Of a stretch of 64,000 nt of DNA, positions 16,563 through 63,331 are shown piece after piece. Numbering within the stretch: position 1 is the first letter of the stretch; each line of letters starts with the position of its first letter. Where the stretch lies: IMG/VR virus record IMGVR_UViG_3300010353_000982. One strand, written 5' to 3'. A program made the position numbers and the translations under genes. This DNA is from an uncultured virus (IMG/VR IMGVR_UViG_3300010353_000982). Lineage: Duplodnaviria > Heunggongvirae > Uroviricota > Caudoviricetes. The notes beneath the pieces were generated by a model that saw only the letters and a list, made by a program, of their open reading frames with translations, was not told where the DNA came from and did not search any database.

Positions 16563-16631
16563 GAGTGCCGCAGGCAGCGCGTGGCGGGTATCCAATCCCC
16601 CATGGCAGGAGGTTCAATTCCTCTCGCACTC
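16563..16631 (+). ncRNA. tRNA-like element E1 (degenerate cloverleaf)
   Basis: GAGTGC/GCACTC stem, CGC-AGGCA-GCG D-like arm, GGAGG-TTCAATT-CCTCT T arm; followed by TCCC-TTCG-GGGA hairpin and RBS. Confidence 0.7.
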
Positions 16632-16665
16632 CTCCCTTCGGGGAAAAAACAATGGAGTTCAATCC

Positions 16666-17730
16666 ATGTCTGTAAACATCAAAAAGGGTATCAAGGAAAT
16701 GAGCCAGAAGCTCGGCAAGTCCGAGGAAGAGCTCATCGCTGAAATGGCGAAGTTTGAATCCGATCTCTCGGCTATTTTCGACGATACCGAAGAGGTAAAG
16801 CAGGCCGCATTCAAGCAGCTTCGTGGCGCATACCGCGCACAGATGAAGTCGAATGCCAAGATGTTTGAGGGATTTTTCTTTGCTATGCAGCCTGTTCGTA
16901 ATGAGAATGACTTTCCGATCAAAGAGGCCGACAAGGAGTTTAAGAAACTCTCCGACGAAGTTGGTCGTGAGGAGGCCGTCGCCCAGTGGCAGGGTCTCGG
17001 AAAGATGAATGAGAATGAACAGTATCTGTTCAATGCCGACAACACTACCGATGCAATGAAGTGGAAGCGTGGTAAGGTTATCGAGCGCTTTGTGCCTGTC
17101 AGGGAATGCTACGGTTTCTTCAAGGAGCCCGACGTCCAGGGGAGCAAGATCCGCTTCGGTATTGTGACCATGCGCCACGAGCCCGAGAAATTCATTCCAG
17201 AGATGCTCAAGGTTTATTCCTTCAGGGCCACTGGTAAACCCGAGAACACACCGCTCCGTCTGAATGGAACGTCTGTGACTTCTCTTACCGATACTGGAGT
17301 CACTATCGATTTCGACATCTTCGTTAAGATGATTGGACAGGATATGCCAAAGAATGTCAAGTCATTCGATGATGTCTACAATCTTGACAAGGGTGTCTGC
17401 AAGGTTCCCGAGAACCCAAGGTTCTTTATCACGAAGGCCACGATTTCTCGTCTAAACGTGACTGACAAACCCGATCTGAATATCGATTTTGCCGATATAA
17501 CAGATCTTGTTGGTGACTTCGATCCTGTCTCGATGACAGTCTCCAAAGATCTCGGTGGTATTTATGAGAATGCCATTGGTATTGCAGTATATGCTCCGTA
17601 TATCAAGACCAAGGACAATACTGCTGCAGGAAACCTTTACGGGTTTATCACTGCCGACAATGCACCGAAACCAGCGCCTGTTGCCAAGAAAGCAGCAGCA
17701 AAGAAGAACACCGATGAAAATTGGGAGTGA
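16666..17730 (+). CDS. Putative ssDNA-binding/replication protein
   Basis: Beta-rich core, flexible tail ending acidic (TDENWE), upstream of recombination ATPase; function inferred. Confidence 0.45.
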   Translation: MSVNIKKGIKEMSQKLGKSEEELIAEMAKFESDLSAIFDDTEEVKQAAFKQLRGAYRAQMKSNAKMFEGFFFAMQPVRNENDFPIKEADKEFKKLSDEVGREEAVAQWQGLGKMNENEQYLFNADNTTDAMKWKRGKVIERFVPVRECYGFFKEPDVQGSKIRFGIVTMRHEPEKFIPEMLKVYSFRATGKPENTPLRLNGTSVTSLTDTGVTIDFDIFVKMIGQDMPKNVKSFDDVYNLDKGVCKVPENPRFFITKATISRLNVTDKPDLNIDFADITDLVGDFDPVSMTVSKDLGGIYENAIGIAVYAPYIKTKDNTAAGNLYGFITADNAPKPAPVAKKAAAKKNTDENWE

Positions 17731-17738
17731 ATTAATCA

Positions 17739-18671
17739 ATGGCAAAAGCAAAGGATACTGACTGGAACAATGCAGATAACGGTGGAGAATCCACCGATGA
17801 ATCTGCTGCCGCAGAAGTAGCGCTCAAAGGAACAGGAAAAGTATCCAAAGCCTTGAAAGAAAATCTCATTCGAGACAAGGTAATGGAACTGAAGCGGGAT
17901 AGAGATGACGACATCATGCCCGACTTCGATCTGGACAGTGCTCTTATGGATACGAGTAGCAGTAAGAAAGTATTTACTGTTTATGGACACAAGAATGACG
18001 CCAAGACTACGACTGCAATGGGAGTAGCAAAGAAGGGCGACAAGGTTGCCGTCCTGTCATTCGATTTGAAATCTGACCGTCCAACCGACCTCGATTTCAT
18101 AAAGAAAAGCGGTGTAGATTACAAGGTTTTCAATGCTATCCTTTACCTTGACAAGTCAACGCCTGACCTGTATCAGACCACTGCCGAGAAGACCTATGTC
18201 TTCGTGCTGAAGCTTCTTGATGGAATCAAGGAGAAATATAAGCCCGATTGGGTAATCATTGACGGTTCTGAATTCCTGAACAAGATTCTTGAACAGGTAA
18301 TGAGGAAGCGCAACGGCGTAATGCCGTATCAGGGAGTCGCTAACCAGAACATCTGGAAGGAGCGTACCCAGTATATCGATGATGTTCACAAGCAGGCCAT
18401 GGACGCCGCAACCAAGGGAATTATGTATACGACGTATGTATCCAAAGATTCCGTGGTAAAGGACGGCGTAGTAGTTCAGCAGAAAGACATGCCGAAGTGG
18501 TTAGGCGATGTCATGTCGCAGACCGATGTCATCATTCGTGTTATCACCGACGTAAGTGGCGGTAAGACCGAATACAAGGCTGTCATTGAGTCCTCAAAAT
18601 TCCCGAGGGAGTTCCCTCCAGGAGAATATGTAATCACCAACAAGCGTCTTTACGACGTAATCAACAAGTGA
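17739..18671 (+). CDS. RecA-fold ATPase (Sak4/AAA_24-like)
   Basis: Atypical Walker A GHKNDAKTT, Walker B WVIIDG, TDVIIR strand. Confidence 0.6.
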   Translation: MAKAKDTDWNNADNGGESTDESAAAEVALKGTGKVSKALKENLIRDKVMELKRDRDDDIMPDFDLDSALMDTSSSKKVFTVYGHKNDAKTTTAMGVAKKGDKVAVLSFDLKSDRPTDLDFIKKSGVDYKVFNAILYLDKSTPDLYQTTAEKTYVFVLKLLDGIKEKYKPDWVIIDGSEFLNKILEQVMRKRNGVMPYQGVANQNIWKERTQYIDDVHKQAMDAATKGIMYTTYVSKDSVVKDGVVVQQKDMPKWLGDVMSQTDVIIRVITDVSGGKTEYKAVIESSKFPREFPPGEYVITNKRLYDVINK

Positions 18672-19394
18672 GTGACCAAGATGAAGATTGGTATCGACCA
18701 ACTGAAACGGTTCATCGATATCGCGGGTGTGAATAAAGATGGTTTTGAAGCCATTGCTTCGGCTGGCACATTAACATCCAATGTAATGAACGACGACAGA
18801 AATGTTGTTGTTATCGTTGAGATGCAGACAAAAGCTGGCGACGAAGCAAAATTCCGCCTGCAAAGAGATATTTTTCTCAAATATCTCCGAAATATCGATG
18901 GTAAAATGGTCGATATGACTTCAGATGATACCCTTATCACTGTCGAGGGTGAGGATGTAAAACTCTTCATCCCTCAAGTGGTTTCTGCTATTACCGACAA
19001 AACCAAAAAGCCATTACCACAATCGATGAGTAACTGGGAAATGCAGTCAAGGCTTACTTTTTCCCCAGTTAAAATTAAAAAGATTTTATCGGTAGTGGAT
19101 AATGTCGGTGAACGTGTTATTACCCTCGTGATAAGTGGTGGTAAAATCACGGCGAAGATAAAGAAAAGGGCGATTGTAAAAGATATCGGTGAAGTAACCG
19201 ATGGTGAGACCGATTTTACTATTTCTTACCATATTGGTGCGTTCAACGATGCATTTCAGGGTGCTTTAGATAAACCTGTTTTTGTCACGATATATTCTCC
19301 GATAGAGAATGATCGCCCGCCTTCGTCGTTCAATTATTCATCTGGAGACTTATTGATCAGTGGACTTCTCGCCGATTGGAGGGAAAAAGAATGA
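18672..19394 (+). CDS. Putative sliding clamp (PCNA/gp45-like)
   Basis: 240 aa two-domain pattern directly upstream of clamp loader. Confidence 0.6.
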   Translation: MTKMKIGIDQLKRFIDIAGVNKDGFEAIASAGTLTSNVMNDDRNVVVIVEMQTKAGDEAKFRLQRDIFLKYLRNIDGKMVDMTSDDTLITVEGEDVKLFIPQVVSAITDKTKKPLPQSMSNWEMQSRLTFSPVKIKKILSVVDNVGERVITLVISGGKITAKIKKRAIVKDIGEVTDGETDFTISYHIGAFNDAFQGALDKPVFVTIYSPIENDRPPSSFNYSSGDLLISGLLADWREKE

Positions 19395-20296: not shown

Positions 20297-20327
20297 TAAC
20301 AAGACAAATAATCATGGTGGAGAAACA

Positions 20328-20570: not shown

Positions 20571-20701
20571 TGGCAAGAGAAATGACTTTACGCTGCAAGG
20601 CAAAGAACTGTGACCACGACAGACTTGAAGGCCAGTTCCTTTTTCAAAAATGCCTTCGTTGTCCTGATTTCGAATTCGGCCCCAAAGGAAATGGTAAATG
20701 A
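20570..20701 (+). CDS. Small Cys-rich protein, 43 aa
   Basis: Hand-translated MAREMTLRCKAKNC...CLRC; coupled at both ends. Confidence 0.55.
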   Translation: MAREMTLRCKAKNCDHDRLEGQFLFQKCLRCPDFEFGPKGNGK

Positions 20702-24189: not shown

Positions 24190-24329
24190 GTAAAACTATC
24201 GTATTGCAGTGTGCTCTGTGCCATGGTACAGGCACAAAGGATAATGGAGACACATGTCTCTGTTATCTGTTTGGTGGCCCAATCAAGCGCTTTGACGGCG
24301 ATCTTTGGGAGGTAAAGAACGATGACTGA
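24186..24329 (+). CDS. Small Zn-finger protein (CxxCxGxG)
   Basis: Hand-translated MSKTIVLQCALCHGTG...CLC; overlaps both neighbours. Confidence 0.5.
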   Translation: MSKTIVLQCALCHGTGTKDNGDTCLCYLFGGPIKRFDGDLWEVKNDD

Positions 24330-27300
24330 AGATATGGTCGACGCAGTAATCGCCGCACGATATCTTAATAAGGGCGAGCGTGTTTGGGAAGACGTATGCA
24401 ACAGAGTATCTACCTTCGTGGCCAACGATGAAGGACAGCGTGAACAGTTCTTTGAACTCATGCTAACAGGAAAGTTCCTTCCAAATTCTCCGACGCTTAT
24501 GAATGCAGGAACTGATATTGGTCAATTATCAGCCTGCTTCGTCTTACCTGTTGATGATGATATGCAGGGAATTTTCGACGCTGTAAAGTGGACGGCCATG
24601 ATTCATAAGTCAGGCGGCGGAACAGGATTCAATTTCTCAAACCTGCGTGCCGAGGGATCACCAGTTGGATCTACTAATGGTGTTGCATCTGGCCCCCTGT
24701 CCTTCATGAAAGTATTCAATGAGGCGACAGAGACGGTAAAGCAAGGAGGTAAGCGACGTGGCGCGAACATGGGCATTCTGAACTGTACCCATCCTGACAT
24801 CAAGAAGTTCATCGTTGCCAAGAAAACCGAGGGCCAACTTGCCAACTTTAATTTCTCCGTAATGATAAATGATGACTTTATGAAGAAGGCTACCGATGCA
24901 GGCTACACTGGTGAGGAAAAAGAAATCTTCGATATGATAATTGATAACCAGTGGAATAACGGAGAACCGTCTTTTTTGTTCTACGATAATATCAACAAAA
25001 ATCCACATACTCCTGCCCTTGGCCCCATCGAGGCAACCAATCCCTGTGTTACTGGAGATACTCTTCTCCTGACAGAGATTGGTTATGAGCCAATTGAACA
25101 ACAGGTAGGACGAAAGATACATATCTGGAATGGATACGAGTGGTCAGAAGTCACTCCATGTAAAACAGGCACTAATCAAAAGATAATGAAGCTTACATTT
25201 ACAGATGGTAGTGAATTAAAATGTACCCCGTATCACAAATTTGTTTGCACGCTTAATGGAAAAGAATACCGAGTAGAAGCAAAAGATATCCATGTCGGAG
25301 AATCGATTGTAAAGTTTGATTTCCCTGTGATTCATGGATGGTTCAAGCTTGCAAATGCATATACCCATGGATTCTTCTCTGGCGACGGTCATATCGATGC
25401 TCGTGGTCGTAGTTTAATCTATCTTTACGGAGAAAAGAAAAATCTCGTCGATGTAATCTCATACAAATCCATTTGGAATTGTAATGGAAGAGATGTTTTA
25501 CAACTCGATAATGAAACTATCTGGAATAAGACATTTGTTCCCGATGCTTTCTACGACGTTGAATCAAGACTTATGTGGTTGAATGGTCTTATCGATTCCG
25601 ATGGATGTAATAACACTGGCGCTATCCAGATATCGTCGGTGGATCGTGACTTCCTGCAGAGAGTAAAGTATATGCTTCATACTCTCGGCGTAACTGGCGT
25701 TATTTCGATAATGAAGAAAGCCTGTTGCAAGATGATGCCCGATGGCAAAGGAGGACAGAAAGAATATAATTGTAAGGAGTGCTATCGCATATCGATTTCT
25801 TCTGGCGATGTAATGAAATTATATAATCTCGGCCTTGATACGCATCGTATAAAGATAACAACAATTCCACAGCGTAGTGTAAAACAATTCATTAGAATCA
25901 AGTCTATTGAGATGCTTGAAGAATTGGAAGATGTTTATTGTCTAACAGAGCCAAAGAATCACACGATGATTTTAAACGGCATATTGACGTCGAACTGCGG
26001 AGAGCAGCCCTTATATCCCTTCGAATCGTGTAATCTCGGTAGTATAAATTTATCCAAGTTTGTAGATGAAAGTGGTCAGTTCGATTACAATGGTCTACAA
26101 GAAACAGTTGTCGCCGCAGTACAGTTCCTCGATAATATCATCGACAAGAACAAATTCCCCCTGCCACAGATTGAGAAGGCCACGAAGAGAACACGAAAGA
26201 TTGGCCTCGGCGTGATGGGATTCCACGACGCACTTATCATGATGGGTGTTCCTTATGATTCAAGACGTGCAGTCGAGATAGCCAATTCTATCATGGAAAA
26301 TATCGAGACTGTAGCCAAGGACACATCAGAAACTATGGCAATGGAACTTGGTGTTGCTCCGTATTATGAACAATACCCAGACTCAACCGAGGATCGTCGC
26401 CGCAATGTTTGTCTTACCTGTATTGCCCCGACAGGTTCAATTTCTATCCTCGCAAAGTGCTGGTCAGGAATTGAGCCCGCGATATGGGTAATGCAAAGAA
26501 ATAATACCGTCGGAAAGTCTTTCTTTATCGTGCATCCGCTCTTCGAAAAGATGCTTCGTGAAGAAGCTGACGAGCGCGGCATTGACGAGGATGGTATTCA
26601 GAAGGCCATTGCTGACGTCCATGCATCAGGATCTATCGAGGTAATCGATTGGCTGCCGAAGAAAATCAAGCGGCTCTACAAATCAGCCTTTGATCTGACA
26701 TGGAAGCAGCACCTTGATATTGTTATAGCTTTCCAGAATCATGTTGACGCGGCGGTTTCAAAAACCGTGAACATGCCCGCTGAATCTACCAAGCGCGATT
26801 TCATGGACGCTGTTATCTATGCATGGAAAAATGGACTGAAAGGAATTACTCTCTACAGGACTGGAAGTCGTGAGGACGAAGTTCTTACGCTGGCCAAGGA
26901 AACCGCACAAGAGAAAACAAAAAGGATGTCTGACACATGCAAGAGAATGCCATTCTTCGATGAGAAGACACAAGAATGGCGCTGGCTGCCAAAGCGACCC
27001 GATATTCTCCCGACGTATGGATTAAAGAAAATGCGCTCTGGTTGTGGAGATCTTCTTATTGACATCAGCGAGATGGAAGGCAGACCGTATGAATGTCTCG
27101 GCGATTATACTCTTGGTGGCGGAGGTTGTGATGCAATGCTCCGTACGACGAGAGTTCTCCTGGGGCTTTGTTTCCGCTGGGGAGTTCCAACGTGGGATAT
27201 TGTAAAGAATCTCAAGGCCATCAAATGCGACGTTGCGCGAGAAAAATACAGGCGTGGTGAGGCCGACGGTATTTCGTGTGCAAATTGTATTGGTCGTTAT

Positions 27301-27522
27301 CTCGAAGAAAACATTCCTGACGATATGGAGGAACTTGCTTATCCATTCAAGAATGGTAATAAGGAAAAATTCCTCAAAGAAATTGGGCTCATATTTGGCT
27401 CACAACCATTAGACGTGAAGCTCGTCAAGGAAGAAATGATATCATGTCCCGAATGCGGCTCCGAGATTCTCAAAGAAGAAGGATGTCGTAAATGTCATAA
27501 CTGTGGATGGAGTCAGTGCTAA
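24322..27522 (+). CDS. nrdJ: Class II (B12-dependent) ribonucleotide reductase with intein and C-terminal Zn-ribbon domain
   Basis: PNSPTLMNAG, LSACFV, GGKRRGANM, NP|CGEQ, APTGSIS, SKTVN; CPEC...CHNC tail. Confidence 0.95.
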   Translation: MTEDMVDAVIAARYLNKGERVWEDVCNRVSTFVANDEGQREQFFELMLTGKFLPNSPTLMNAGTDIGQLSACFVLPVDDDMQGIFDAVKWTAMIHKSGGGTGFNFSNLRAEGSPVGSTNGVASGPLSFMKVFNEATETVKQGGKRRGANMGILNCTHPDIKKFIVAKKTEGQLANFNFSVMINDDFMKKATDAGYTGEEKEIFDMIIDNQWNNGEPSFLFYDNINKNPHTPALGPIEATNPCVTGDTLLLTEIGYEPIEQQVGRKIHIWNGYEWSEVTPCKTGTNQKIMKLTFTDGSELKCTPYHKFVCTLNGKEYRVEAKDIHVGESIVKFDFPVIHGWFKLANAYTHGFFSGDGHIDARGRSLIYLYGEKKNLVDVISYKSIWNCNGRDVLQLDNETIWNKTFVPDAFYDVESRLMWLNGLIDSDGCNNTGAIQISSVDRDFLQRVKYMLHTLGVTGVISIMKKACCKMMPDGKGGQKEYNCKECYRISISSGDVMKLYNLGLDTHRIKITTIPQRSVKQFIRIKSIEMLEELEDVYCLTEPKNHTMILNGILTSNCGEQPLYPFESCNLGSINLSKFVDESGQFDYNGLQETVVAAVQFLDNIIDKNKFPLPQIEKATKRTRKIGLGVMGFHDALIMMGVPYDSRRAVEIANSIMENIETVAKDTSETMAMELGVAPYYEQYPDSTEDRRRNVCLTCIAPTGSISILAKCWSGIEPAIWVMQRNNTVGKSFFIVHPLFEKMLREEADERGIDEDGIQKAIADVHASGSIEVIDWLPKKIKRLYKSAFDLTWKQHLDIVIAFQNHVDAAVSKTVNMPAESTKRDFMDAVIYAWKNGLKGITLYRTGSREDEVLTLAKETAQEKTKRMSDTCKRMPFFDEKTQEWRWLPKRPDILPTYGLKKMRSGCGDLLIDISEMEGRPYECLGDYTLGGGGCDAMLRTTRVLLGLCFRWGVPTWDIVKNLKAIKCDVAREKYRRGEADGISCANCIGRYLEENIPDDMEELAYPFKNGNKEKFLKEIGLIFGSQPLDVKLVKEEMISCPECGSEILKEEGCRKCHNCGWSQC
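25045..25995 (+). mobile_element. Intein (317 aa) with LAGLIDADG endonuclease in NrdJ active-site loop
   Basis: Starts CVTGDT, CTPYH block B, GFFSGDG and GLIDSDG, ends ILTSN before catalytic Cys. Confidence 0.92.
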
Positions 27523-27926
27523 TGGATCGAATGGAAATAGAAAATATGGACATTCCATATCCTCTTGAAAATGGTGTTGATGGTGTTTGTGCCGACGCTG
27601 GATCGGCCCTCGCCAACATCCTTGGATTCACAGATGAATTATTCTTTGGACATATCGAAGTATGTCAGGACAGAAAAACCGATAGAGAAATCATCTATCT
27701 ACATTATATTAACAGCAGACATCCCCGTCGTGGAAATGTTAAGAAGCTGTTAAGATCGTGGATTGATGCAGGTTTTCGTGTCAGGATAATCAGGCCAGAA
27801 CCAGAGATGCAGAATATCATTGAACCCATGGGATTTAAGATATACTTCGAATACAAGAATGGAACTGTCCCAAAAGGCTTACCTGCTGACATATGGAGAA
27901 TACCATCGGATGAGGAATCAACATAG
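27522..27926 (+). CDS. Hypothetical protein, possible GNAT-like fold
   Basis: IYLHYINS...RRGN and MGF patterns; weak. Confidence 0.5.
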   Translation: MDRMEIENMDIPYPLENGVDGVCADAGSALANILGFTDELFFGHIEVCQDRKTDREIIYLHYINSRHPRRGNVKKLLRSWIDAGFRVRIIRPEPEMQNIIEPMGFKIYFEYKNGTVPKGLPADIWRIPSDEEST

Positions 27927-27948
27927 GGGTTCAACTCCCCTTTCCGAT
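27905..27948 (+). ncRNA. tRNA-like element E2
   Basis: ATCGGA/TCCGAT stem, TGA-GGAA-TCA hairpin, AGGGG-TTCAACT-CCCCT T arm; then TCCC-CTCG-GGGA hairpin and RBS. Confidence 0.7.
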
Positions 27949-27987
27949 TTCCCCTCGGGGAGAAAAATTACAACTAGGAGGAGGTAA

Positions 27988-56821: not shown

Positions 56822-57223
56822 ATAACACTATACGTTGCCATAGTATATAGTTATATTGGAAAAAAATTTTTTTTTTGGAAATGCGAAAATCAAGGTAATG
56901 AAAGCAACCAAAAACGATTCACGGAGGAAACCCCCACTTACATGCACCATCATATACAAAAACACGAGGTAAGGTGTATCAAAGTAGGGGTGCTCCCTCG
57001 GGCATTGCCACAAATACGGCCATATAAGATTTGAAAAATGTCTTGTCGAGAATTTTCACTAGGCGCGACGACAGAAATATGCCCCCCGCTTCGAGATCTG
57101 GGCAAAATAAGCCCGTAAACTCGTCCGATTGTCACAGCGACGCCGCCAGGACTTCTAATTATCCTCATGAATATAAATCGTTTTCTCGACGACGCCCCGA
57201 CGTCCACGTCGTCACCCCCGAAG

Positions 57224-57266
57224 CGTCTGACATGTGTCTGCCACCTGTCTGCCACTTGTCTGACAC
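57224..57266. repeat. Tandem ~11-bp repeat TGTCTG(C/A)CAC x3-4
   Basis: Read directly. Confidence 0.8.
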
Positions 57267-57807
57267 GCCCTATGTGCCGCACCCACTCCGTGCCCCACGA
57301 CGGACACGTCGCCATCACGACGTCAAGATAAGATTTCGTTTTCATTTATATACCTTCCGCCGCGCCGCCCGCCTGACAGCGCATCCCCCCGCGCCCCTCG
57401 TTGCCACGACGTAATCCTGGCCCGACGTAAATGACGACGATAACGACGGGACGTCGACACTATAGCACCCGACGTGCCACACCTCGCCCCCCGTCGACAT
57501 TTTCTCGCCCCCACGACGTCACCGACGTCCCGCCCCTCGGCCTGTTCTCTTACCTGCAGACGACAACCACGTCGCCACCGACGGAAAACCCCCCGATTTC
57601 ACCACGATTTCCACGTCGACACGACGTTACGACGATGGTTCGCCGTTGCTACGACGTTGTCCGTCGTTCGACGAAATAACGTCTGAACGCACGCCTGACC
57701 ACGACGTTAAATTTTCAAAACCTTCACGACGGAGACACGACGAGATACGACGCATTTCTTAATTCGAATGACTTCTTAAAAAACTAAAAAGCCATTTTTG
57801 ACCCTTC

Positions 57808-57842
57808 TTAATAATAATAATAATAATAATATATATATATAG
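57808..57842. repeat. (TAA)n-(TA)n simple repeat flanked by TTCTTA motifs
   Basis: Read directly. Confidence 0.9.
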
Positions 57843-58018
57843 TAAAATATGACTTCTTAGTTTCTTAAGAAGTAGAAGAAACCGAGAAATGCGACGTACA
57901 CCGACGTTAAAATCAGGGGGATGCTATTTTCGAGATTACGTCGTGCTCCGACGTTAGCGGTTCAATTTGGGCGTTTTTGGCTAAAATAACGTTAAATCTT
58001 ATCTCGTTATCTTGTTAT

Positions 58019-58051
58019 CCCGACGACTTCCCGACGACTTCCCGACGACTT
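58019..58051. repeat. Tandem 11-bp repeat CCCGACGACTT x3
   Basis: Read directly. Confidence 0.9.
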
Positions 58052-58690
58052 CCCCTCGTTATCTCGACGATTTCCCGACATCTCGACGTCCACTCGACGT
58101 TGACTTTTCCACTGGAAATCCCGCTTTATGTCGATGGAAACCCCATATTGGCGTTTTAAGGCCAAAAAACCCCCTCCGCATACTATTGTCCGAAAAAAGA
58201 GGTAAAGCCAGCCAGAAACGCGGGAACCTACCTTAAAATCGATTTTAGGCCGATATCGTCACTTCATACCGACAACCCCTTTGGCCCGACGTGGCCCCGA
58301 CGTAAAATCGCTCCCCACTCCGCTGCCCGCTCCGACGTGGCGACCCTGCCCGCCTCCCCCGTATCCAGACGCTGCCGATGCTCTTTACCTCGTGGCTCCC
58401 TCGTGGCTCGACTGACGGCCCCATCCCTCCGCAAACCCAGCGCCCCGACGTGAAGCGCGCCCCGCCCCAACGACGGCCCCAGCCGAAGGCGACGACTGAA
58501 GCCCCTCGTTTTCGTCGTTCCGTCGTGACTTCCTCGTTACCGACGTTAAAATGGCATTTTCAACGACGGAGCAACGCCTGGAGCCTTTCCGTCGTGGTCT
58601 CGACTGAAGCCTTAACGCCTGACTCCCTCGGCAACTTTCCGACGTGAAGCCCGACGGCAACGTCTGAAACGACCCTCGCCCCGACGTAAG

Positions 58691-58703
58691 CAAACCTTTA
58701 TCA
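58691..58703 (+). promoter_or_regulatory. BRE-TATA promoter heading the structured region and early genes
   Basis: CAAACCTTTATCA, same motif as other viral promoters. Confidence 0.6.
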
Positions 58704-58721
58704 TGTCAAAGGTCAATTTTG

Positions 58722-59270
58722 TTTTGTGAAATCGCAGGGAAAAACGCCAAACGGCGCGATGCCCTGACGGTGACACGACTGATGCACGTCGTAAACAACA
58801 GGGGATAAGGCGGAGCGTTTACGACGGAAGGATTACAGGGCTCCAAGGGTTTCCTCGTTTTTTAGGAGGTTCAGACGTAAAACCGACGGGCCGTCTCTGA
58901 CGGACACCACCTGATTCCCCCGACGTATACGGCGTATGAGGTATGGGTTTTTGCTAAAGATTCTTCAGTCGATGGCGACGGCGTGGCATTCGAAGGTAAC
59001 GGAGAACACCACGGCGGATGAACTATCAGTTTACGAGACGGACACGATGAGATGTCCGACGGGGAATCGCATAGTCTTCAGTCGTTTTCCTCTCCGTATA
59101 AGTCGTTAAACGTCACAAAAAATCCCTGACGGTGACAACGATGAAGGAATGCCATTACCTTCGGAGTCACCCGTCGAAAAAAAGTCATACCGACAGGCGA
59201 AATTTCCGACGGCGCTTCAACCTTTCCAACCACGGAAGACACGGAGTGCCCGACGAAGGAACGTGATTTT
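58722..59270 (+). ncRNA. Candidate large structured ncRNA or 5' leader
   Basis: No ORF >=60 aa; many nested and crossing helices; 3' end uncertain. Confidence 0.55.
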
Positions 59271-59404
59271 TGAGTCGTAAAAATGGAAAAAATCTTGAAT
59301 TTACGAGGGGGCCGTCGAGGCTACCCCGTGCAAATTTACTCGTGGTGATAAAGTCGGCCACGTCGAGAAATCGGCGTTGTCGGCGTCAACTAGGAGTGAA
59401 AAAA

Positions 59405-60082
59405 ATGGCAATCAATTTCGATTTTTCGACTGAAGTGCAGGAGAAAATCACGGCGGGCCACGTTAGGGCTCACGATGAAAAGTTCCGCGTCACCACGTCG
59501 AAAATGACGGGAAAACTTGCAGGCATCGTCGGAATTTCGACGAACCCCCTCGCAAATCCCTTCTGTAAATCGATGCAGAACGTCGAGGGAGCCGTCTGTC
59601 AGAATTGTTACTCGTGCAGGATGCTTTTATCGTCGAGAAAGCAGGCGATAACGGCGTGGACGGCGAATACCGTCGCCCTGTCCGACGACAATCTGTCAGA
59701 TGAAATGCTCCCGTCGATACCCGACGGCGCTTATGTGCGGTTCAATCCACACGGCGAGATTACGTCGGAGGCAATGGTGCGGAATTTCTTCCGTATTGCA
59801 CGGAGGAACCCGACGGCGCACTTCGTTCTCTTTACGAAGAGATACGAACTTGTCCGTCGTTGCGCCGACGAGAAGCCCTCAAACGTGGCCCTCGTTGCCT
59901 CGGCGTATCACCTCAATAAGCCCGTCGATAGCGTCGAAGGCTTCGACACGGTTTTCCGTGTCTTTACGCCTGAATACGCCGATTCTCACGGCGTAAAAAT
60001 CAACTGCCTCCTCCGTTGCAACGACTGCAAAAAGTGCTGGTCTACCGACGGTGGACAGGTGATTAATGAGAGACTCAAATAA
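59405..60082 (+). CDS. Phage Gp88-like Cys-cluster protein
   Basis: SKMTGKL, C...CxxCY, RFNPHGE, FTKR, C...CxxCxxC; AGGAGTGA RBS. Confidence 0.7.
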   Translation: MAINFDFSTEVQEKITAGHVRAHDEKFRVTTSKMTGKLAGIVGISTNPLANPFCKSMQNVEGAVCQNCYSCRMLLSSRKQAITAWTANTVALSDDNLSDEMLPSIPDGAYVRFNPHGEITSEAMVRNFFRIARRNPTAHFVLFTKRYELVRRCADEKPSNVALVASAYHLNKPVDSVEGFDTVFRVFTPEYADSHGVKINCLLRCNDCKKCWSTDGGQVINERLK

Positions 60083-60087
60083 CCTTT

Positions 60088-60130
60088 TTCCCGACGCTTT
60101 CAGGCGTTGAAGTTCAATCTTCACGGGGAA
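60088..60130 (+). ncRNA. tRNA-like element E3
   Basis: TTCCCG/CGGGGAA stem, ACGC-TTTCAG-GCGT hairpin, TGAAG-TTCAAT-CTTCA arm. Confidence 0.7.
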
Positions 60131-60173
60131 TTCCCGACGAGACCGTCGAGTCTCCGAGGGCGGAGTTAAAAAA

Positions 60174-60509
60174 ATGGCTACAGACGCAAACAACGACGCA
60201 GTCGTCGATATGTCGGTTGAATATGACAATGTGAAGTTTCTTCACGTCGAAAAGAACGACGATAAAGTTAAATTTGTCGTCGAATTTTACGACGGTGGAA
60301 AGACAGGGCCACATTACGTCAATAAAATCGACTGGATAACCATTTTAACGGCGGCTGCCGTCGGAAGTTCGACGCTTACCATCCACGGTAACGAGGCGCA
60401 CTACACGGGCTACTCGTCGTATGGCGGTAAAGTTGTCGTCGAGGTAAAGGAACTTGAACAGTCGAAAATGCGGTTTGTTAACGTCGAAATGTCGTTACCA
60501 AACCACTAA
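60174..60509 (+). CDS. Hypothetical protein
   Basis: GGAG RBS; ORF track. Confidence 0.7.
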   Translation: MATDANNDAVVDMSVEYDNVKFLHVEKNDDKVKFVVEFYDGGKTGPHYVNKIDWITILTAAAVGSSTLTIHGNEAHYTGYSSYGGKVVVEVKELEQSKMRFVNVEMSLPNH

Positions 60510-60511
60510 TT

Positions 60512-60554
60512 TTTCTCGGCGCTATCAGGCGTTAAGTTCAATCTTTCCGAGAAA
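60512..60554 (+). ncRNA. tRNA-like element E4
   Basis: TTTCTCGG/CCGAGAAA stem, CGC-TATCAG-GCG hairpin, AAG-TTCAAT-CTT arm. Confidence 0.7.
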
Positions 60555-60598
60555 TTCCCGAGGAGCGCTCGACGTTCCGACGGAGTGAGTGATAAAAA

Positions 60599-60856
60599 AT
60601 GGCTGAAAATACGACGGTGCTCGACGCACTGGAGAAGTTGTATGTTTCTTCGACGAAATACGGCGCGCCACAATGCGCTTACCTCCGTTATGACGTCAGA
60701 AAACACGACTGGTATTGTGACTATCGTAACTCTCGACGCGACCGATATCAGGACGTCTGTGTTTACGACGACAAGACAGTCGAAAATCTCCGTAAAATCG
60801 AGCAAACCTGCCCCTGCTGGCACGACGATATTCTCGACGGTGATAACGATGATTGA
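60599..60856 (+). CDS. Small Cys-rich protein (paralog 1)
   Basis: C.YLR.D...WYC...RRD...VCV.DD...CPCW. Confidence 0.7.
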   Translation: MAENTTVLDALEKLYVSSTKYGAPQCAYLRYDVRKHDWYCDYRNSRRDRYQDVCVYDDKTVENLRKIEQTCPCWHDDILDGDNDD

Positions 60857-61025
60857 ATGCGAATATCTCCGTTTTGATTACGTCGAGCGGGAATGGTATT
60901 GTGCGTTTCGTCTGACCCGACGTGATAAGTTAAATTACGTCTGTGTTTGCGACGATGACGACGTAAAGCAGTTGATTGCCGACGAGATTTACTGCCCCTG
61001 CTGGCGTAGTCTCGACGATGAATAA
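60849..61025 (+). CDS. Small Cys-rich protein (paralog 2)
   Basis: Same motif; GGTGA RBS before ATG 60849. Confidence 0.7.
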   Translation: MIECEYLRFDYVEREWYCAFRLTRRDKLNYVCVCDDDDVKQLIADEIYCPCWRSLDDE

Positions 61026-61028
61026 ATT

Positions 61029-61072
61029 TTTCAGTCGCGCTTATGGCGTAAAGTTCAATCTTTCGGCTGAAA
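61029..61072 (+). ncRNA. tRNA-like element E5
   Basis: TTTCAGTCG/CGGCTGAAA stem, CGC-TTATG-GCG hairpin, AAAG-TTCAAT-CTTT arm. Confidence 0.7.
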
Positions 61073-61107
61073 TCCCCCGAGGAAACGACGGGGTTTAGGT
61101 GAAAAAA

Positions 61108-61269
61108 ATGGCTTTTGGAATAAACTCAATTTGCCGTCTATATCTCGACGGTGAAGTATTTCACGTATGCTGCAATCGTGAAGTAGTAGAATCGATGAAA
61201 TCCCGACTGGTTCAGGCGGGTATTTCGGCGGAACGCCTTCGAGTTACGGAGAGAATGCCGAATATCTGA
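61108..61269 (+). CDS. Hypothetical protein, 53 aa
   Basis: AGGTGA RBS; hand-translated MAFGINSICRLYLDG... Confidence 0.6.
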   Translation: MAFGINSICRLYLDGEVFHVCCNREVVESMKSRLVQAGISAERLRVTERMPNI

Positions 61270-61451
61270 ACCAATTTTTCGACGGAGCGGAATCTCACCG
61301 CCGACAACCGACGGTGGGACGCATCTGACGGAGAATCGACGGAAAATCCTGGAGAACGACGGATACCGACGACTTCACGCACCATGCGCGGAAAAAAAAA
61401 GCAGCCCAGTTTGGCCCCAGTTGGGGTATTTGGGCAGGAATTGAGTAGAAA

Positions 61452-61661
61452 ATGCAATCAGTCCAGTTTATGCACCGCGACGGGCATTGTGAAGACTTCC
61501 TCGAATTTACGGAGAGTCTTGGTTTCGATGCCAGTGCAGCACAGTCAGACGAAGATGGCATGGACTGTATCGACAACGCCCTCGAATGGCTCAACAGAGC
61601 ACACGATGGCGTGCGGTATATTCTCGCCGAGTTTGGGGTGGTGGTAGCAGTTCCCGCGTAA
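61452..61661 (+). CDS. Small acidic protein
   Basis: ORF track. Confidence 0.6.
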   Translation: MQSVQFMHRDGHCEDFLEFTESLGFDASAAQSDEDGMDCIDNALEWLNRAHDGVRYILAEFGVVVAVPA

Positions 61662-61753
61662 CGACGATTTGCTACCTGAACCCGCCCCTCACTCCTAGTT
61701 CATGCTGATACTCAACGACGGGAAGAGAAATTCATTCCCGTCTGATACCATAG

Positions 61754-61812
61754 TTTTTTATCCCGTAACGTCGTAAGGGTGCGTCCCTGCGGCGCGGAGA
61801 TAGTTAACAATG
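61754..61812 (+). promoter_or_regulatory. Intergenic hairpin overlapping RBS (family B, copy 3)
   Basis: T6-ATCCCG-TAA-CGTCGT...GCGGCG-CGGAGAT then ATG. Confidence 0.5.
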
Positions 61813-62109
61813 TTTATCGTATGTCCGTCAGTCCCATCGACTGAAATGGCAATGGAAGTTTTGCACCGTGCCCAGCGGTGTGTTAAACTGTTGGCTGACG
61901 TTTCTGCGTCGGAACAGTTAGACCCTTACCTCGAAAATGAGTTAATACGAGGGTGGGACGAAGCAGAACTTAAAGACCCGATACTGCGCGACCTGTTCCC
62001 ACGACTGTATCTTGAATCAGATTTTTTTCTGATTTACGACTTCGGTCTCGACGGTTCAGTGCGGAAGATAACGCCGATGTCACGGCGGTTATTGTATCAG
62101 GAGAAATAA
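61810..62109 (+). CDS. Hypothetical protein
   Basis: ORF track; GGAG RBS. Confidence 0.6.
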   Translation: MFIVCPSVPSTEMAMEVLHRAQRCVKLLADVSASEQLDPYLENELIRGWDEAELKDPILRDLFPRLYLESDFFLIYDFGLDGSVRKITPMSRRLLYQEK

Positions 62110-62111
62110 CG

Positions 62112-62201
62112 ATGGATATCGAGTTTTTCTTCTATATAATGCTCGGCTGTATTATCGGTGGTCTCGCCGTGAGCGCATATCTGTTCATTCAGACGTTATG
62201 A
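62112..62201 (+). CDS. Hydrophobic micropeptide, 29 aa
   Basis: MDIEFFFYIMLGCIIGGLAVSAYLFIQTL fills the intergenic gap. Confidence 0.55.
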   Translation: MDIEFFFYIMLGCIIGGLAVSAYLFIQTL

Positions 62202-62212
62202 GGTGACAAAAA

Positions 62213-62422
62213 ATGTATGCGAAGGTTAATTTCAAGTCGAAGAAAGCCTTAAAACAGGCGGTCTCCGACGGGCAGCGCATTGGGATTTATCAAGTTGGCC
62301 CCTTCGGAGGTAATGAGCCCAGCAACGGGACAGTTTACCTCGAAGGCCCATGGTATCCCGAGCCCCATCGCTGGTATGCAACGGCGGAAGTTAAAGACGG
62401 CATCATCGTAAAAGTGAAATAA
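62213..62422 (+). CDS. Conserved small viral protein
   Basis: NFKSKKALK...GPWYPEPHRWYA; GAGGTGA RBS. Confidence 0.75.
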   Translation: MYAKVNFKSKKALKQAVSDGQRIGIYQVGPFGGNEPSNGTVYLEGPWYPEPHRWYATAEVKDGIIVKVK

Positions 62423-62620
62423 ATGTCCGTCGATAATTGCCCGTTCTGCGGGGAACCGTTGATTTTCGAGGACGAATACATCTTCGGAAATCACGTCGCT
62501 GGCATGTTTTATGACGACGACAGCGAATTTCTAACGGTTCGCGCCCGCTGCCCGAGGTGCAAAGCAAATTTCCACCTGAAGTATCGCTTTAATGACTACG
62601 AGGTAACTGGCTACGATTGA
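62423..62620 (+). CDS. Zn-ribbon protein
   Basis: CPFCG...CPRC. Confidence 0.7.
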   Translation: MSVDNCPFCGEPLIFEDEYIFGNHVAGMFYDDDSEFLTVRARCPRCKANFHLKYRFNDYEVTGYD

Positions 62621-62654
62621 CGGCGTAGAGCAGGTTCGAATCCTGCAGCCAGTT
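62605..62654 (+). ncRNA. tRNA-like element E6
   Basis: AACTGGCT/AGCCAGTT stem, ACG-ATTGACGG-CGT hairpin, canonical GCAGG-TTCGAAT-CCTGC T arm. Confidence 0.78.
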
Positions 62655-62763
62655 TTCGGCGGGTAGCCGACCAGTTAACGAGAGAGAAACGGAAAGCGGG
62701 GATGACCCGTGAGAGTCAAGTTCCCTCGTGGACTGGCAACGGCTTCCGTCGTTAGGTGAAAAA

Positions 62764-62976
62764 ATGACAGTTTACAGAGTGACAACAACGTATGGTCTCG
62801 CTAGTCATACGGAGAACATGGATGGCCCATACCTCGAAGAGTGGATTAAGTATCTCAAGGAGAGACACGAGGTCTGCGAGGTAACACGGTATCCAGACTC
62901 GACGTGTGTCGATATCAAGATTGACAGGCCCATCAAGGAGATGCGAGATGTCCTTATGAACCTTCTCAATTCTTAA
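62764..62976 (+). CDS. Hypothetical protein
   Basis: AGGTGA RBS before ATG 62764. Confidence 0.65.
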   Translation: MTVYRVTTTYGLASHTENMDGPYLEEWIKYLKERHEVCEVTRYPDSTCVDIKIDRPIKEMRDVLMNLLNS

Positions 62977-63041
62977 GACTTGGCCCTTTTGGCCCTAATC
63001 TGGCCCTTTTACCTTGAGTTAACCAATGAAGGAGAATTTCG

Positions 63042-63218
63042 ATGAAGACTAAATGTAACATCTGCGGTTTTGAGATGGAGTTCGACGCGCAGCAAAACAG
63101 CCTACAATGCGGCAAAACTCTCATCATCTGTCCCATCTGTAAAAATCCACTTGTGAAGTGTGATTGCAAAATTGTCGTCGAGACAATAATGCTCAATGCA
63201 ACCAATCCCGACGACTGA
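63042..63218 (+). CDS. Zn-ribbon protein, 58 aa
   Basis: CNICG...CPIC; AGGAG RBS. Confidence 0.65.
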   Translation: MKTKCNICGFEMEFDAQQNSLQCGKTLIICPICKNPLVKCDCKIVVETIMLNATNPDD

Positions 63219-63242
63219 AACAAGAAGAAAGACGATACGATG

Positions 63243-63300
63243 GACGGTCTCGCGGCCCTGTTTGGGTAGCCGAGAAAGGGGTGCAATTCCCCTTACCGTT
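63243..63300 (+). ncRNA. tRNA-like element E7
   Basis: GACGGT/ACCGTT stem, CTCG...CGAG arm, AAGGGG-TGCAATT-CCCCTT T-like arm; then CCCTCG/CGAGGG hairpin and RBS. Confidence 0.7.
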
Positions 63301-63331
63301 TTCCCTCGAAGCGAGGGCAGGAGTTAAAACA

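What the first reader, a model, noticed from the sequence alone, without database searches (positions are those of the whole stretch)
16563..63317. Dispersed family of tRNA-mimic elements at gene junctions: candidate RNase Z/RNase P punctuation system for viral mRNA
Seen: seven + strand elements (16563-16631, 27905-27948, 60088-60130, 60512-60554, 61029-61072, 62605-62654, 63243-63300) share one architecture with different stem sequences. Each has an acceptor-like closing stem, a short GG-containing D-like arm, a T arm (loops TTCAATT, TTCAACT, TTCAAT, TTCGAAT, TGCAATT) at or within 1 nt of the 3' strand, then a second hairpin and an RBS/start. None encodes CCA and six lack an anticodon arm. 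Known: RNase Z and RNase P recognise acceptor/T-arm minihelices, and a tRNA-like element directs RNase Z processing of haloarchaeal 5S rRNA. Inference: the virus uses host tRNA-processing enzymes to cut polycistronic mRNA, leaving each downstream mRNA with a protective 5' hairpin (analogous to T7 RNase III sites), and may release small tRNA decoys. I know of no description of this in archaeal viruses.
Basis: partly seen in the sequence, partly recalled or inferred. Interest (0 to 1): 0.9.

Follow-up and report, generated by a model that had tools for sequence, protein, structure and literature searches.

The report
tRNA look-alikes between phage genes
A tailed virus from wastewater carries short RNA folds between many of its early and replication genes that copy only the top half of a tRNA, most likely so that the host's tRNA-trimming enzymes cut its long messages into separate pieces.

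Summary
All seven + strand elements exist at the stated places. Each has a closing "acceptor" stem, a GG-containing linker or small arm, a T-arm-like hairpin, then a GC hairpin, a ribosome-binding site and a start codon. ARAGORN and Rfam call none of them a tRNA.

They are not chance. A strict descriptor finds 6 on + and 0 on -, against a mean of 0.9 in shuffles. The e1 and e2 orthologues in a relative with about 73% protein identity keep both stems through compensatory changes. A strain-variant contig (L052) carries four more elements of the same build. A covariance model built only from three of those recovers e2 and e6. In the 8-sequence alignment all 84 cells pair, and 10 of 11 pairs show compensatory change.

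e3-e5 are a divergent subfamily with weak T arms.

Nothing shows an archaeal host. The evidence leans towards a bacteriophage.

Metatranscriptome contigs from 4 studies begin 10-32 nt after e3, e4 and e5. That is only a weak hint of processing, and the ends are not at the predicted RNase Z site.

The best reading is t-element-like processing signals, a kind known from plant mitochondria and Haloferax. My searches found no description of them in prokaryotic viruses. Earlier notes of this scan report similar elements on other viral DNA.

The parts
16563..16631 (+). e1: 69-nt degenerate cloverleaf. Acceptor of 6 bp plus a C.C layer, a 3-bp GG arm, an anticodon-like arm with an 8-nt loop, and a T arm GGAGG/TTCAATT/CCTCT. 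It heads the replication module.
   Evidence: Fold. The orthologue in G003 keeps only the acceptor, GG linker and T arm, with 3 compensatory pairs. ARAGORN does not call it.
16633..16644 (+). Hairpin after e1 (UCCC-UUCG-GGGA), then an A-run, the SD GGAG and the ATG at 16666.
   Evidence: It is invariant in G003.
16530..16561 (+). AT-rich, near-palindromic stretch just upstream of e1. It may be a promoter or operator, in which case e1 could lie at the 5' end of its transcript.
   Evidence: Read from the sequence. Conserved in G003. No sigma-70 consensus match on the + strand. This is inference only.
27905..27948 (+). e2: acceptor ATCGGA/TCCGAT, a 14-nt GG linker that holds the upstream stop codon (TAG 27924-27926), T arm AGGGG/TTCAACT/CCCCT, and a U.U layer. 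It precedes the Cas4-like nuclease gene.
   Evidence: In the G003 lineage 4 of 11 pairs are compensatory and 100% of cells pair. Found by models built from other sequences: R1 E 0.024, R2 E 7e-8.
27949..27962 (+). Hairpin after e2 (UUCCC-CUCG-GGGAG), then an A-run, the SD AGGAGGAGG and the start at 27988.
60087..60130 (+). e3: acceptor of 7 bp, hairpin ACGC/GCGT, T arm TGAAG/TTCAAT/CTTCA with a 6-nt loop.
   Evidence: It is a paralogue of e4 and e5, with different closing stems that still pair.
60135..60165 (+). Two small hairpins after e3, then the SD GGAG and the ATG at 60174.
   Evidence: RNA-run contigs of three studies begin at 60144, 60148 and 60162.
60512..60554 (+). e4: acceptor of 8 bp, hairpin CGC/GCG, and a weak T arm (3 bp, 6-nt loop).
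   Evidence: The T arm is not formed in the minimum-energy fold.
60558..60583 (+). Hairpin after e4, then the SD and the ATG at 60599.
   Evidence: Contigs of three studies begin at 60567, 60571 and 60571, one of them carrying adapter sequence.
61029..61072 (+). e5: acceptor of 9 bp, a small hairpin, and a T arm of 4 bp with a 6-nt loop.
   Evidence: The closing stem is absent from the minimum-energy fold.
61075..61093 (+). Hairpin after e5, then the SD AGGTGA and the ATG at 61108.
   Evidence: Contigs begin at 61082 (with adapter), 61089 and 61105.
62605..62654 (+). e6: the most tRNA-like element. Acceptor of 8 bp, a true D arm (4 bp, loop AUUGACGG), T arm GCAGG/TTCGAAT/CCTGC, and no anticodon arm. 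It overlaps the upstream stop codon (TGA 62618-62620).
   Evidence: z -2.77 with flank, 0 of 200 shuffles as good. R1 E 0.0012, R2 E 7.5e-6. Both models aligned only 62622-62650.
62656..62760 (+). Hairpin (62656-62670) and about 90 nt of further predicted structure between e6 and the ATG at 62764.
   Evidence: Not conserved elsewhere that I could see.
63242..63301 (+). e7: acceptor of 7 bp (two G.U), one long internal hairpin, T arm AGGGG/TGCAATT/CCCCT. Its T loop departs from the tRNA consensus: G at the second position, and A in a strain variant.
   Evidence: Identical in L052. G63283>A in runs X10 and X11. Only a weak match to R2 (E 1.8).
63303..63317 (+). Hairpin after e7 (CCCUCG-AAG-CGAGGG), then the SD GGAG and the ATG at 63332.

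Best explanation
The elements are cis-acting RNA signals of the t-element kind. Each is transcribed as part of a long + strand message. Each folds into the upper half of a tRNA: an acceptor stem stacked on a T arm (11-14 layers in all), with a T loop and a GG linker that can form the tRNA 'elbow'. It is then recognised by the host's tRNA-end-processing nucleases.

I think the main cut is on the 3' side, by RNase Z or the host's equivalent. That cut would separate the downstream cistron (hairpin, SD, AUG) from the upstream one. A 5' cut by RNase P is possible where the element starts after the upstream stop codon.

The effect would be to uncouple the stability and translation of neighbouring early and replication genes that share one transcript.

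Shown: the fold, its conservation, its strand and its position. Inferred: recognition and cleavage by tRNA-processing enzymes, and their identity, because the host is unknown.
For: 1. Structure under selection.
- The e2 orthologues keep 11 of 11 acceptor and T pairs, with 4 compensatory pairs. Two of those compensate synonymous changes in the overlapping upstream codons.
- The e1 orthologue has lost its D and anticodon arms but keeps the acceptor and T arm, with 3 compensatory pairs.
- In the 8-sequence alignment A10, 84 of 84 cells pair and 10 of 11 pairs show compensatory change. 0 of 500 shuffles reach this, and slid controls pair at about 50%. A10 was fitted to the model, so it leans towards the structure.

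2. tRNA-specific features.
- GGTTCRANYCC is present in e1, e2 and e6, in all four L052 elements, and in both G003 orthologues.
- The loop-closing G-C pair is invariant, and GG is present in all 7 fully aligned linkers.
- A mismatch layer (A.A, U.U or C.C) between the 6-bp acceptor and the 5-bp T stem gives 12 stacked layers, as in a tRNA.

3. Not tRNAs. ARAGORN finds 0. Rfam gives no tRNA match even at E up to 5. No element encodes CCA.

4. Position.
- All 11 elements are on the coding strand at gene junctions, and each has a hairpin 0-4 nt downstream followed by an SD and a start codon.
- In the window, 5 of 13 junctions between 59.3 and 64 kb carry one.
- None lies among the - strand structural genes.

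5. No sigma-70 promoter or intrinsic terminator lies at any element. Counts in the region are at shuffle level. This fits long transcripts that need processing.

6. Weak hint from RNA. In contigs of 4 RNA runs from 4 studies, pieces begin within 5-23 nt of each other just downstream of the elements:
- e3: 60144, 60148, 60162
- e4: 60567, 60571, 60571
- e5: 61082, 61089, 61105
Two of these carry adapter sequence. One contig ends 11 nt before e6. No DNA run was laid for comparison, and contigs cannot prove ends.

7. Precedent. t-elements with the same motif direct RNase Z and RNase P cuts in plant mitochondria (PMC1920247, passages read) and in Haloferax (PMC4326828, passages read).
Against: - No cleavage has been shown.
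- The contig starts lie 10-32 nt past the element, in or just after the loop of the next hairpin, not at the discriminator where RNase Z would cut.
- e7 is bridged by contigs in 2 runs and e3 in 1 run, so cutting is at best partial, or those contigs come from carried-over DNA.
- Four of 11 elements (e2, e6, L052 2344, L052 3207) overlap the upstream stop codon. An RNase P cut there would leave a message without a stop.
- e3-e5 have weak T arms with 6-nt loops and are not found by either covariance model.
- The T loop of e7 is off-consensus and varies between strains.
- Folding energies are mostly no better than shuffles.
- Only two diverged lineages and one strain variant were available, so the covariation rests on few independent events.
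- The host, and therefore its enzyme set, is unknown.
Confidence: 0.5

Rival explanations
1. The elements are structural modules of the untranslated regions that work without being cut. A stable tRNA-shaped fold at the end of one cistron would block 3'-to-5' exonucleases. Alternatively, the fold and the following hairpin before the next cistron would tune ribosome loading or bind a tRNA-elbow-binding factor.
For: - Conserved structure.
- Fixed distance of 31-45 nt to the start codon in 6 of 7 window elements.
- Overlap with upstream stop codons in 4 of 11 is harmless if nothing is cut.
- e7 and e3 are bridged by RNA-run contigs.
Against: - A generic roadblock would not need a tRNA-type T loop, an invariant GG and 12-layer geometry.
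- Contig starts cluster just downstream of e3-e5 in several studies (weak).
Confidence: 0.2
2. The excised 40-70-nt tRNA-like RNAs are themselves the product. They would be small decoys or sponges for host factors that bind the acceptor/T-arm half of tRNAs, such as defence nucleases, the CCA-adding enzyme or modification enzymes. Their position at gene junctions would only be a convenient way to express them.
For: - At least 11 different copies exist in one lineage, with varied stems but constant tRNA-elbow features.
- The phage has no real tRNA genes.
Against: - Without an anticodon arm they cannot mimic the usual targets of anticodon nucleases. This rests on recalled knowledge.
- Nothing shows that they accumulate.
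- The tight coupling to a downstream hairpin, SD and AUG suggests a role in the message.
Confidence: 0.1
3. The elements are PeSL-like mobile regulatory cassettes, as in T4-type phages: repeated intergenic DNA that combines a promoter and a stem-loop and serves as a crossover point for swapping small early genes.
For: - e3-e5 are about 75% identical repeats flanking small genes in a variable region.
- In strain variants a cassette is replaced, with its right border 6 nt before e7 in the RNA-run contigs (61798-63235). In L052 the replaced stretch is 61798-63023.
- The replisome genes are T4-like.
- The PeSL concept comes from PMC4122927 (abstract read).
Against: - No sigma-70 promoter and no stem-plus-U-tract terminator lies at any element.
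- Most members share structure but not sequence, so they are poor substrates for homologous recombination.
- Compensatory changes point to selection on RNA pairing.
Confidence: 0.08
4. The elements are decaying remnants of former tRNA genes with no present function, or chance hairpins.
For: - e1 looks like a degraded cloverleaf, and its orthologue has lost two arms.
- Folding z-scores are modest.
Against: - Stems are kept by compensatory change across lineages.
- The strand bias is strict and the downstream architecture constant.
- The strict descriptor finds 6 against a shuffle mean of 0.9.
Confidence: 0.05

Closest known systems
t-elements of plant mitochondria (Forner et al. 2007, PMC1920247; passages read)
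   Same: - tRNA-like folds with a conserved GGTTCRANYCC T arm that are not tRNAs.
- They lie next to mRNA 5' or 3' ends and are held to direct RNase Z and RNase P cuts.
- Some overlap reading-frame ends.
   Different: - They belong to an organelle genome, not a virus.
- Ends were mapped experimentally there and not here.
- The phage elements are shorter (39-69 nt), and each is followed by a small hairpin and an SD.
t-elements of Haloferax volcanii (Hoelzle et al. 2008 and 2012, as cited and described in PMC4326828; passages of PMC4326828 read, the two original papers not seen)
   Same: A prokaryotic tRNA-like structure processed by tRNase Z and RNase P to release a neighbouring RNA (5S rRNA, or engineered crRNA).
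   Different: - It is a cellular, archaeal element that releases stable RNAs.
- Here the elements form a dispersed viral family between protein genes, and the host is probably bacterial.
tRNA punctuation of animal mitochondrial transcripts (recalled; only search listings seen)
   Same: Long polycistronic transcripts are cut at tRNA-shaped structures between genes.
   Different: There the punctuation marks are functional tRNAs. Here none is a tRNA.
tRNA-like/miRNA units of murine gammaherpesvirus 68, cut by tRNase Z (recalled; only the listing of PMC3482243 seen)
   Same: A DNA virus uses tRNA-like folds so that host tRNase Z releases the adjacent RNA.
   Different: That is a eukaryotic virus with Pol III units that release miRNAs, not mRNA cistrons.
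PeSLs of T4-type phages (Comeau et al. 2014, PMC4122927; abstract read)
   Same: Repeated short intergenic modules that flank small variable early genes and mark cassette borders.
   Different: PeSLs are promoter-plus-terminator DNA motifs. Here no promoter or terminator consensus was found, and what is conserved is RNA pairing and tRNA features.
tRNA-like domain of tmRNA and RNase P substrates of phages P1/P7 (C4 RNA) and P4 (CI RNA) (recalled, no call)
   Same: An acceptor stem, T arm and D-loop analogue without an anticodon arm. Phage RNAs matured by host RNase P.
   Different: Those are single regulatory RNAs, and Rfam found no such family here. They are not a dispersed set at gene junctions.

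Membership tests
t-element (tRNA-like processing signal) | Acceptor-like stem closed over a T arm with a tRNA-type T loop (GGTTCRANYCC or close) | tested here: met
   The exact motif is in e1, e2 and e6, in 4 of 4 L052 elements, and in both G003 orthologues. e7 is one base off. e3-e5 have only AGTTCAATCT with a 6-nt loop.
t-element (tRNA-like processing signal) | Not a functional tRNA (no proper anticodon arm, not called by tRNA finders) | tested here: met
   ARAGORN finds 0 genes. Rfam gives no tRNA match at the gathering threshold or at E up to 5.
t-element (tRNA-like processing signal) | Structure conserved by compensatory change | tested here: met
   This rests on few independent lineages, and the alignment for one search was fitted to the model.
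t-element (tRNA-like processing signal) | Mature RNA ends coincide with the element's borders | tested here: inconclusive
   Only contigs of RNA runs were available. Pieces start 10-32 nt after e3-e5. e7 and e3 are bridged in some runs.
t-element (tRNA-like processing signal) | Cleavage by RNase P and/or RNase Z | not testable with these tools
   Needs an enzyme assay or end mapping.
Canonical tRNA gene | Cloverleaf with a 7-nt anticodon loop, detectable by tRNA finders | tested here: not met
   e1 has four arms, but an 8-nt loop and a 3-bp D arm.
PeSL (promoter-early stem-loop cassette) | Sigma-70-type early promoter plus terminator stem-loop in the repeat | tested here: not met
   No promoter-like or terminator-like site overlaps any element. 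Counts in 58.5-64 kb are at shuffle level.
PeSL (promoter-early stem-loop cassette) | Lies at the borders of insertions, deletions or replacements between close relatives | tested here: inconclusive
   One cassette swap has its right border 6 nt before e7 in the RNA-run contigs. In L052 the right border lies at 63023, about 220 nt before e7. The left border (61797) is not at an element.
Intrinsic terminator | GC stem-loop followed by a U tract | tested here: not met
   The elements and their hairpins are followed by A-rich stretches, not U tracts.
tmRNA / bacterial Y RNA tRNA-like modules | Match to the Rfam family models | tested here: not met
   No match.

The most novel reading that the evidence does not exclude
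A tailed phage runs a genome-wide 'tRNA punctuation' system without any tRNA. At least 11 different tRNA top-half mimics are placed between early and replication genes. They recruit the host's RNase Z and RNase P to cut polycistronic messages into single-gene mRNAs, each starting with its own hairpin. As a by-product the cuts release a set of small tRNA-shaped RNAs that may occupy host tRNA-binding factors. Within what I could search, this would be the first mRNA punctuation system of this kind in a virus of prokaryotes.
Probability: 0.4. Interest if true: 0.8.

Novelty: new variant of a known kind. Interest (0 to 1): 0.65.

Why it matters
Phage mRNA processing is known mainly from RNase III sites in T7 and from RNase E and RegB in T4. 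A phage that borrows the tRNA-maturation machinery to cut its messages would add a new route of post-transcriptional control.

It would show that 'tRNA punctuation' evolved outside organelles. It would also give annotators a simple signature to search for: an acceptor/T-arm minihelix, then a hairpin, then an SD.

There is a practical side as well. Engineered t-elements of the Haloferax type have been used to release a crRNA in vivo in Haloferax (PMC4326828). A natural set of 39-44-nt elements with many different stems would be a ready parts list for bacteria.

Earlier notes of this scan suggest similar elements in other uncultured viruses, so the phenomenon may be widespread. I did not test that.

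Tried and rejected
- One covariance model of all seven copies was not possible. MAFFT anchors on the T loop and does not put the acceptor strands in common columns, and I cannot supply a hand alignment. I used a script descriptor instead, plus models built from the three equal-length L052 elements (R1) and from their hits (R2).
- R1 and R2 do not find e3-e5, and find e1 and e7 only at E 1.8-4.8.
- The relaxed descriptor (T stem of at least 3) gives 25 hits on + and 16 on -. That is noise and was not used.
- Relatives of the 59-64 kb region were scarce. The gp88-like protein and ORF 60174-60509 have no relatives in viral contigs.
- The pattern GGCGTN{1,2}AAGTTCAATCTT gave 15 loci, none with the element's stems.
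- blastn of 59900-63500 against phages gave no match.
- PolB-based searches found only the window lineage, the G003 lineage and one 30% relative (L051) with no convincing element.
- Stretches without cover in the RNA contigs: no contig covers e4 or e5 in any of the 4 runs, or e3 in 3 of 4.
- Strand and 5'-end reading from the adapter letters at contig ends rests on my recalled knowledge of Illumina adapters. I treat it only as a hint that the + strand is the RNA sense.
- Host assignment stayed open. The 99% identical contig in G001 is titled a Bacteroidetes MAG. However, 43 of 62 genes have an SD-like motif against a 15% background. From recalled knowledge that is unusual for that phylum, and the MAG has 9% contamination. 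The protein atlas gave only 'Viruses'.
- In G001, R2 also hit a real tRNA-Leu, which is a false positive, and one similar element on an unrelated AT-rich contig.
- Archaeal TATA-like and sigma-70-like readings of the stretch before e1 both place a start near 16560-16565. Neither is decisive.
- Earlier-findings look-ups by place and by sequence returned nothing for this genome.

Full report
**What the window is.** The 64-kb window is almost the whole genome of a tailed virus. It encodes:
- a terminase and a ribonucleotide reductase, both interrupted by inteins;
- a Mu-type portal and an HK97/encapsulin-like capsid protein;
- a tail tube and a tape measure;
- a family B polymerase and an RFC/gp44-like clamp loader;
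- a Cas4-like nuclease, an ERCC4 nuclease, and thymidylate and dCTP enzymes.

The + strand carries the replication genes (about 16.6-31 kb) and a cluster of very small genes (59.3-64 kb). The structural genes lie on the - strand (31.5-53.9 kb).

**The observation.** Each has a closing stem of 6-9 pairs. Next comes either an unpaired GG-containing linker (e2), a small hairpin (e3-e6), one long hairpin (e7) or two arms (e1). A hairpin with a tRNA-type T loop follows, and then, after 0-1 nt, the 3' strand of the closing stem. No element is followed by CCA.

A GC hairpin begins 0-4 nt after every element. It is followed by an A-rich stretch, a Shine-Dalgarno motif and a start codon. The start codon lies 31-45 nt after the element, or 110 nt after e6.

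ARAGORN finds no tRNA or tmRNA in the window. Rfam finds nothing at gathering scores. Over 58.6-63.4 kb it finds no tRNA-like family even at E up to 5.

**Weak points of the observation.** Thermodynamics alone is not impressive. The z-scores run from -0.8 to -2.8. The minimum-energy fold does not form the T arm of e4 or the closing stem of e5. e3-e5 have AU-rich T stems of 3-5 pairs and 6-nt loops.

**More than chance.**
- A strict descriptor (T[TG]C[AG]A loop of 6-7 nt, T stem of at least 5, closing stem of at least 6, insert of at most 40) finds 6 sites on the + strand and none on the - strand. In 200 dinucleotide shuffles the mean is 0.9 and the maximum 4.
- One of the six (26740-26775) is inside the reductase gene and is probably chance. 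e4 is missed.
- The plant t-element motif GGTTCRANYCC occurs 4 times against 0.43 expected. Three of the four are e1, e2 and e6. The fourth lies antisense inside the portal gene, with no closing stem.
- AAGTTCAATCTT occurs exactly three times, once each in e3-e5.

**Conservation in a relative.** A relative, G003, is a 49-kb IMG/VR contig with about 73% protein identity. It is collinear with window 5.4-52 kb and has orthologues of e1 and e2 at the same junctions.
- For e2, all 11 acceptor and T pairs are kept and 4 changed on both sides. Two of these compensate synonymous changes in the last codons of the upstream gene, which runs into the element.
- For e1, the relative has lost the D-like and anticodon-like arms. 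It keeps the acceptor, a GG linker and the T arm, with 3 compensatory pairs and a one-pair shift of register.
- So what is conserved is exactly the tRNA top half.

**More members in a strain variant.** L052 (G007, 22 kb) is a strain-variant contig, 96-99% identical where it overlaps the window. It runs past the window's end. It carries e7 plus four further elements on the same strand, at 869-907, 2344-2385, 3207-3249 and 5721-5759. The first lies in a cassette that replaces window 61798-63023.

All four have the same build:
- 6-9 acceptor pairs;
- a 6-9-nt GG linker;
- a 5-bp T stem with loop TTCGACT or TTCGAGT;
- one unpaired base;
- then a CCC...GGG hairpin and an SD, followed in three of the four by a start codon 28-45 nt downstream.

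**Covariance models.** R1 was built only from three of the L052 elements. With filters off it finds e6 (E 0.0012) and e2 (E 0.024) as the two best hits in the window. It also finds the G003 orthologues.

In the resulting 8-sequence alignment:
- 84 of 84 cells pair;
- 10 of 11 pairs show changes on both sides;
- 0 of 500 shuffles reach this, and slid controls pair at about 50%;
- the loop-closing G-C pair is invariant, and GG is present in all seven fully aligned linkers.

That alignment was fitted to the model, which favours the structure. It also holds few independent lineages.

The second model, R2, scores e2 at 7e-8 and e6 at 7.5e-6. It scores e7 at only 1.8 and the e1 T arm at 4.8, and it does not find e3-e5. 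The family therefore has a core (e2, e6, the L052 four, the G003 two), two looser members (e1, e7) and a divergent paralogous subfamily (e3-e5).

**Geometry.** In most members a 6-bp acceptor, one mismatch layer (A.A, U.U or C.C) and a 5-bp T stem make 12 stacked layers, as in a tRNA. In e3-e5 the acceptor lengthens (7, 8, 9 pairs) as the T stem shortens (5, 3-4, 4 pairs). That the tRNA-processing nucleases read this 12-layer stack is recalled knowledge, not a result of any call.

**Host.** I found nothing archaeal.
- A 99% identical 17-kb contig sits in G001. G001 has a bacterial 16S rRNA, and its record title calls it a Bacteroidetes MAG. It has 9% contamination.
- The polymerase and clamp loader are closest to gp43 and gp44 of T4-like cyanophages, at 29-36% identity.
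- The capsid protein weakly matches Brevundimonas phages and one Halorubrum virus.
- The 59.3-63.95 kb stretch is held in 20 listed runs of 10 studies, from wastewater, activated sludge and sludge. Fifteen are on record as RNA.
- SD-like motifs precede 43 of 62 genes, against a 15% background. From recalled knowledge that does not fit Bacteroidota well.

I take the host to be an unknown bacterium, at roughly three to one against an archaeon.

**RNA evidence.** Only assembled contigs could be laid, from 4 RNA runs of 4 studies. Depths differ strongly between neighbouring pieces (3 to 295), which suggests RNA rather than carried-over DNA.

| Element | Pieces begin at | Other observations |
|---|---|---|
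| e3 | 60144, 60148, 60162 | bridged in one run (59919-60459) |
| e4 | 60567, 60571, 60571 | one start carries adapter sequence |
| e5 | 61082, 61089, 61105 | one start carries adapter sequence |
| e6 | - | one contig ends at 62594, 11 nt before e6 |
| e7 | - | bridged in two runs |

The starts are 10-32 nt past the elements, in or just after the loop of the next hairpin. An RNase Z cut would fall at the base of that hairpin. By the tool's own standard this is a weak hint of discontinuity. It gives no support for the 'protective 5' hairpin' detail.

**Promoters and terminators.** No sigma-70-type promoter and no intrinsic terminator coincides with any element. Counts in 58.5-64 kb equal those of shuffles. 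This argues against PeSL-like promoter/terminator cassettes and for long transcripts.

**Mechanism.** I think the elements are t-element-type processing signals. The T loop, GG linker and 12-layer stack mimic what RNase P and RNase Z read on a pre-tRNA.

Four of the 11 elements overlap the upstream stop codon (e2, e6, L052 2344, L052 3207). A 5' cut by RNase P cannot be the rule there. A single 3' cut would leave the upstream cistron capped by a tRNA-shaped 3' end. It would release the downstream cistron with its hairpin, SD and AUG. All of this is inference.

The rivals are an uncut structural UTR module, small-RNA decoys, recombination cassettes and dead tRNA genes. They are set out in the Rival explanations section.

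**Comparison with what is known.**
- t-elements with the same T-arm motif direct RNase Z and RNase P cuts at mRNA ends in plant mitochondria (PMC1920247, passages read).
- A tRNA-like element is processed by tRNase Z and RNase P in Haloferax, and has been used there to release a crRNA (PMC4326828, passages read).
- PeSLs are the known repeated intergenic modules of T4-type phages (PMC4122927, abstract read).
- Six full-text searches for tRNA-like elements in phage or archaeal-virus mRNA processing found no such description. Subscription-journal papers are mostly outside that library.
- Earlier AI notes of this scan report similar minihelices in other uncultured viruses. I did not test those notes.

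**Verdict.** The host claim is not supported. I rate it a new variant of a known kind, of good interest, and it awaits end mapping.

Noticed in passing
window 57040-58930: About 1.7-1.9 kb with no convincing ORF, packed with CGACGT/CGACG motifs (about 30 of the window's 90 CGACGT sites; 26 expected for the whole window), including tandem CCCGACGACTT units at 58012-58060. It may be an origin or a regulatory array. The same motif recurs in the hairpins after e3-e5.
   Followed up: partly
window 58738-59287: A discrete piece of about 550 nt that is very abundant in all four RNA runs (depth 29-295, against 3-45 for neighbouring genes), with adapter letters at both ends in one run. It has no ORF with a good SD, no Rfam match, and a folding z-score of only -1.58. 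In one run it is joined to 3.4 kb of other sequence. It may be a viral non-coding RNA.
   Followed up: partly
window 61798-63235 (and L052 254-1229): Strain variants replace this block of small genes, including e6, with other DNA: 544 nt in runs X10 and X11, and 976 nt in L052 carrying a different tRNA-like element. In the RNA-run contigs the right border lies 6 nt before e7; in L052 it lies at 63023.
   Followed up: partly
window 16540-16561 and L009 (G003): An AT-rich near-palindrome (TTGCCATATATATTGCAA; perfect in G003) directly upstream of e1. It may be an operator or promoter for the replication module.
   Followed up: no
window 16649-16669: The SD and start codon of the gene after e1 sit in a small hairpin (AUGG-AGUUCAAU-CCAU) whose loop again contains GUUCAAU. 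It is identical in G003. The gene product (354 aa, acidic aromatic tail) might be a single-strand-binding protein, which would fit translational self-control.
   Followed up: no
window 10292-12730 and 24322-27522: Both the large terminase and the ribonucleotide reductase carry LAGLIDADG-type intein insertions.
   Followed up: no
window 60599-60856 and 60849-61025: Two adjacent small Cys-rich proteins are paralogues (shared WYC...RRD...VCV.DD...CPCW pattern). They overlap by 8 nt.
   Followed up: no
L061 (G001:C239:5190-5228, - strand): A 39-nt element of the same build (acceptor, GG linker, GGTTCGATTCC T arm) on an unrelated AT-rich contig of the same MAG. ARAGORN does not call it a tRNA, and tblastx finds no similarity to the window.
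   Followed up: partly
window 62977-63041: An intergenic spacer with three GGCCC(T)TTT-type repeats (cttggcccttttggccctaatctggccctttt) before the gene at 63042. It has no tRNA-like fold.
   Followed up: no
window 13052-13062 (- strand): A fourth exact GGTTCRANYCC match lies antisense inside the portal gene. No closing stem was found, so it is probably chance.
   Followed up: partly
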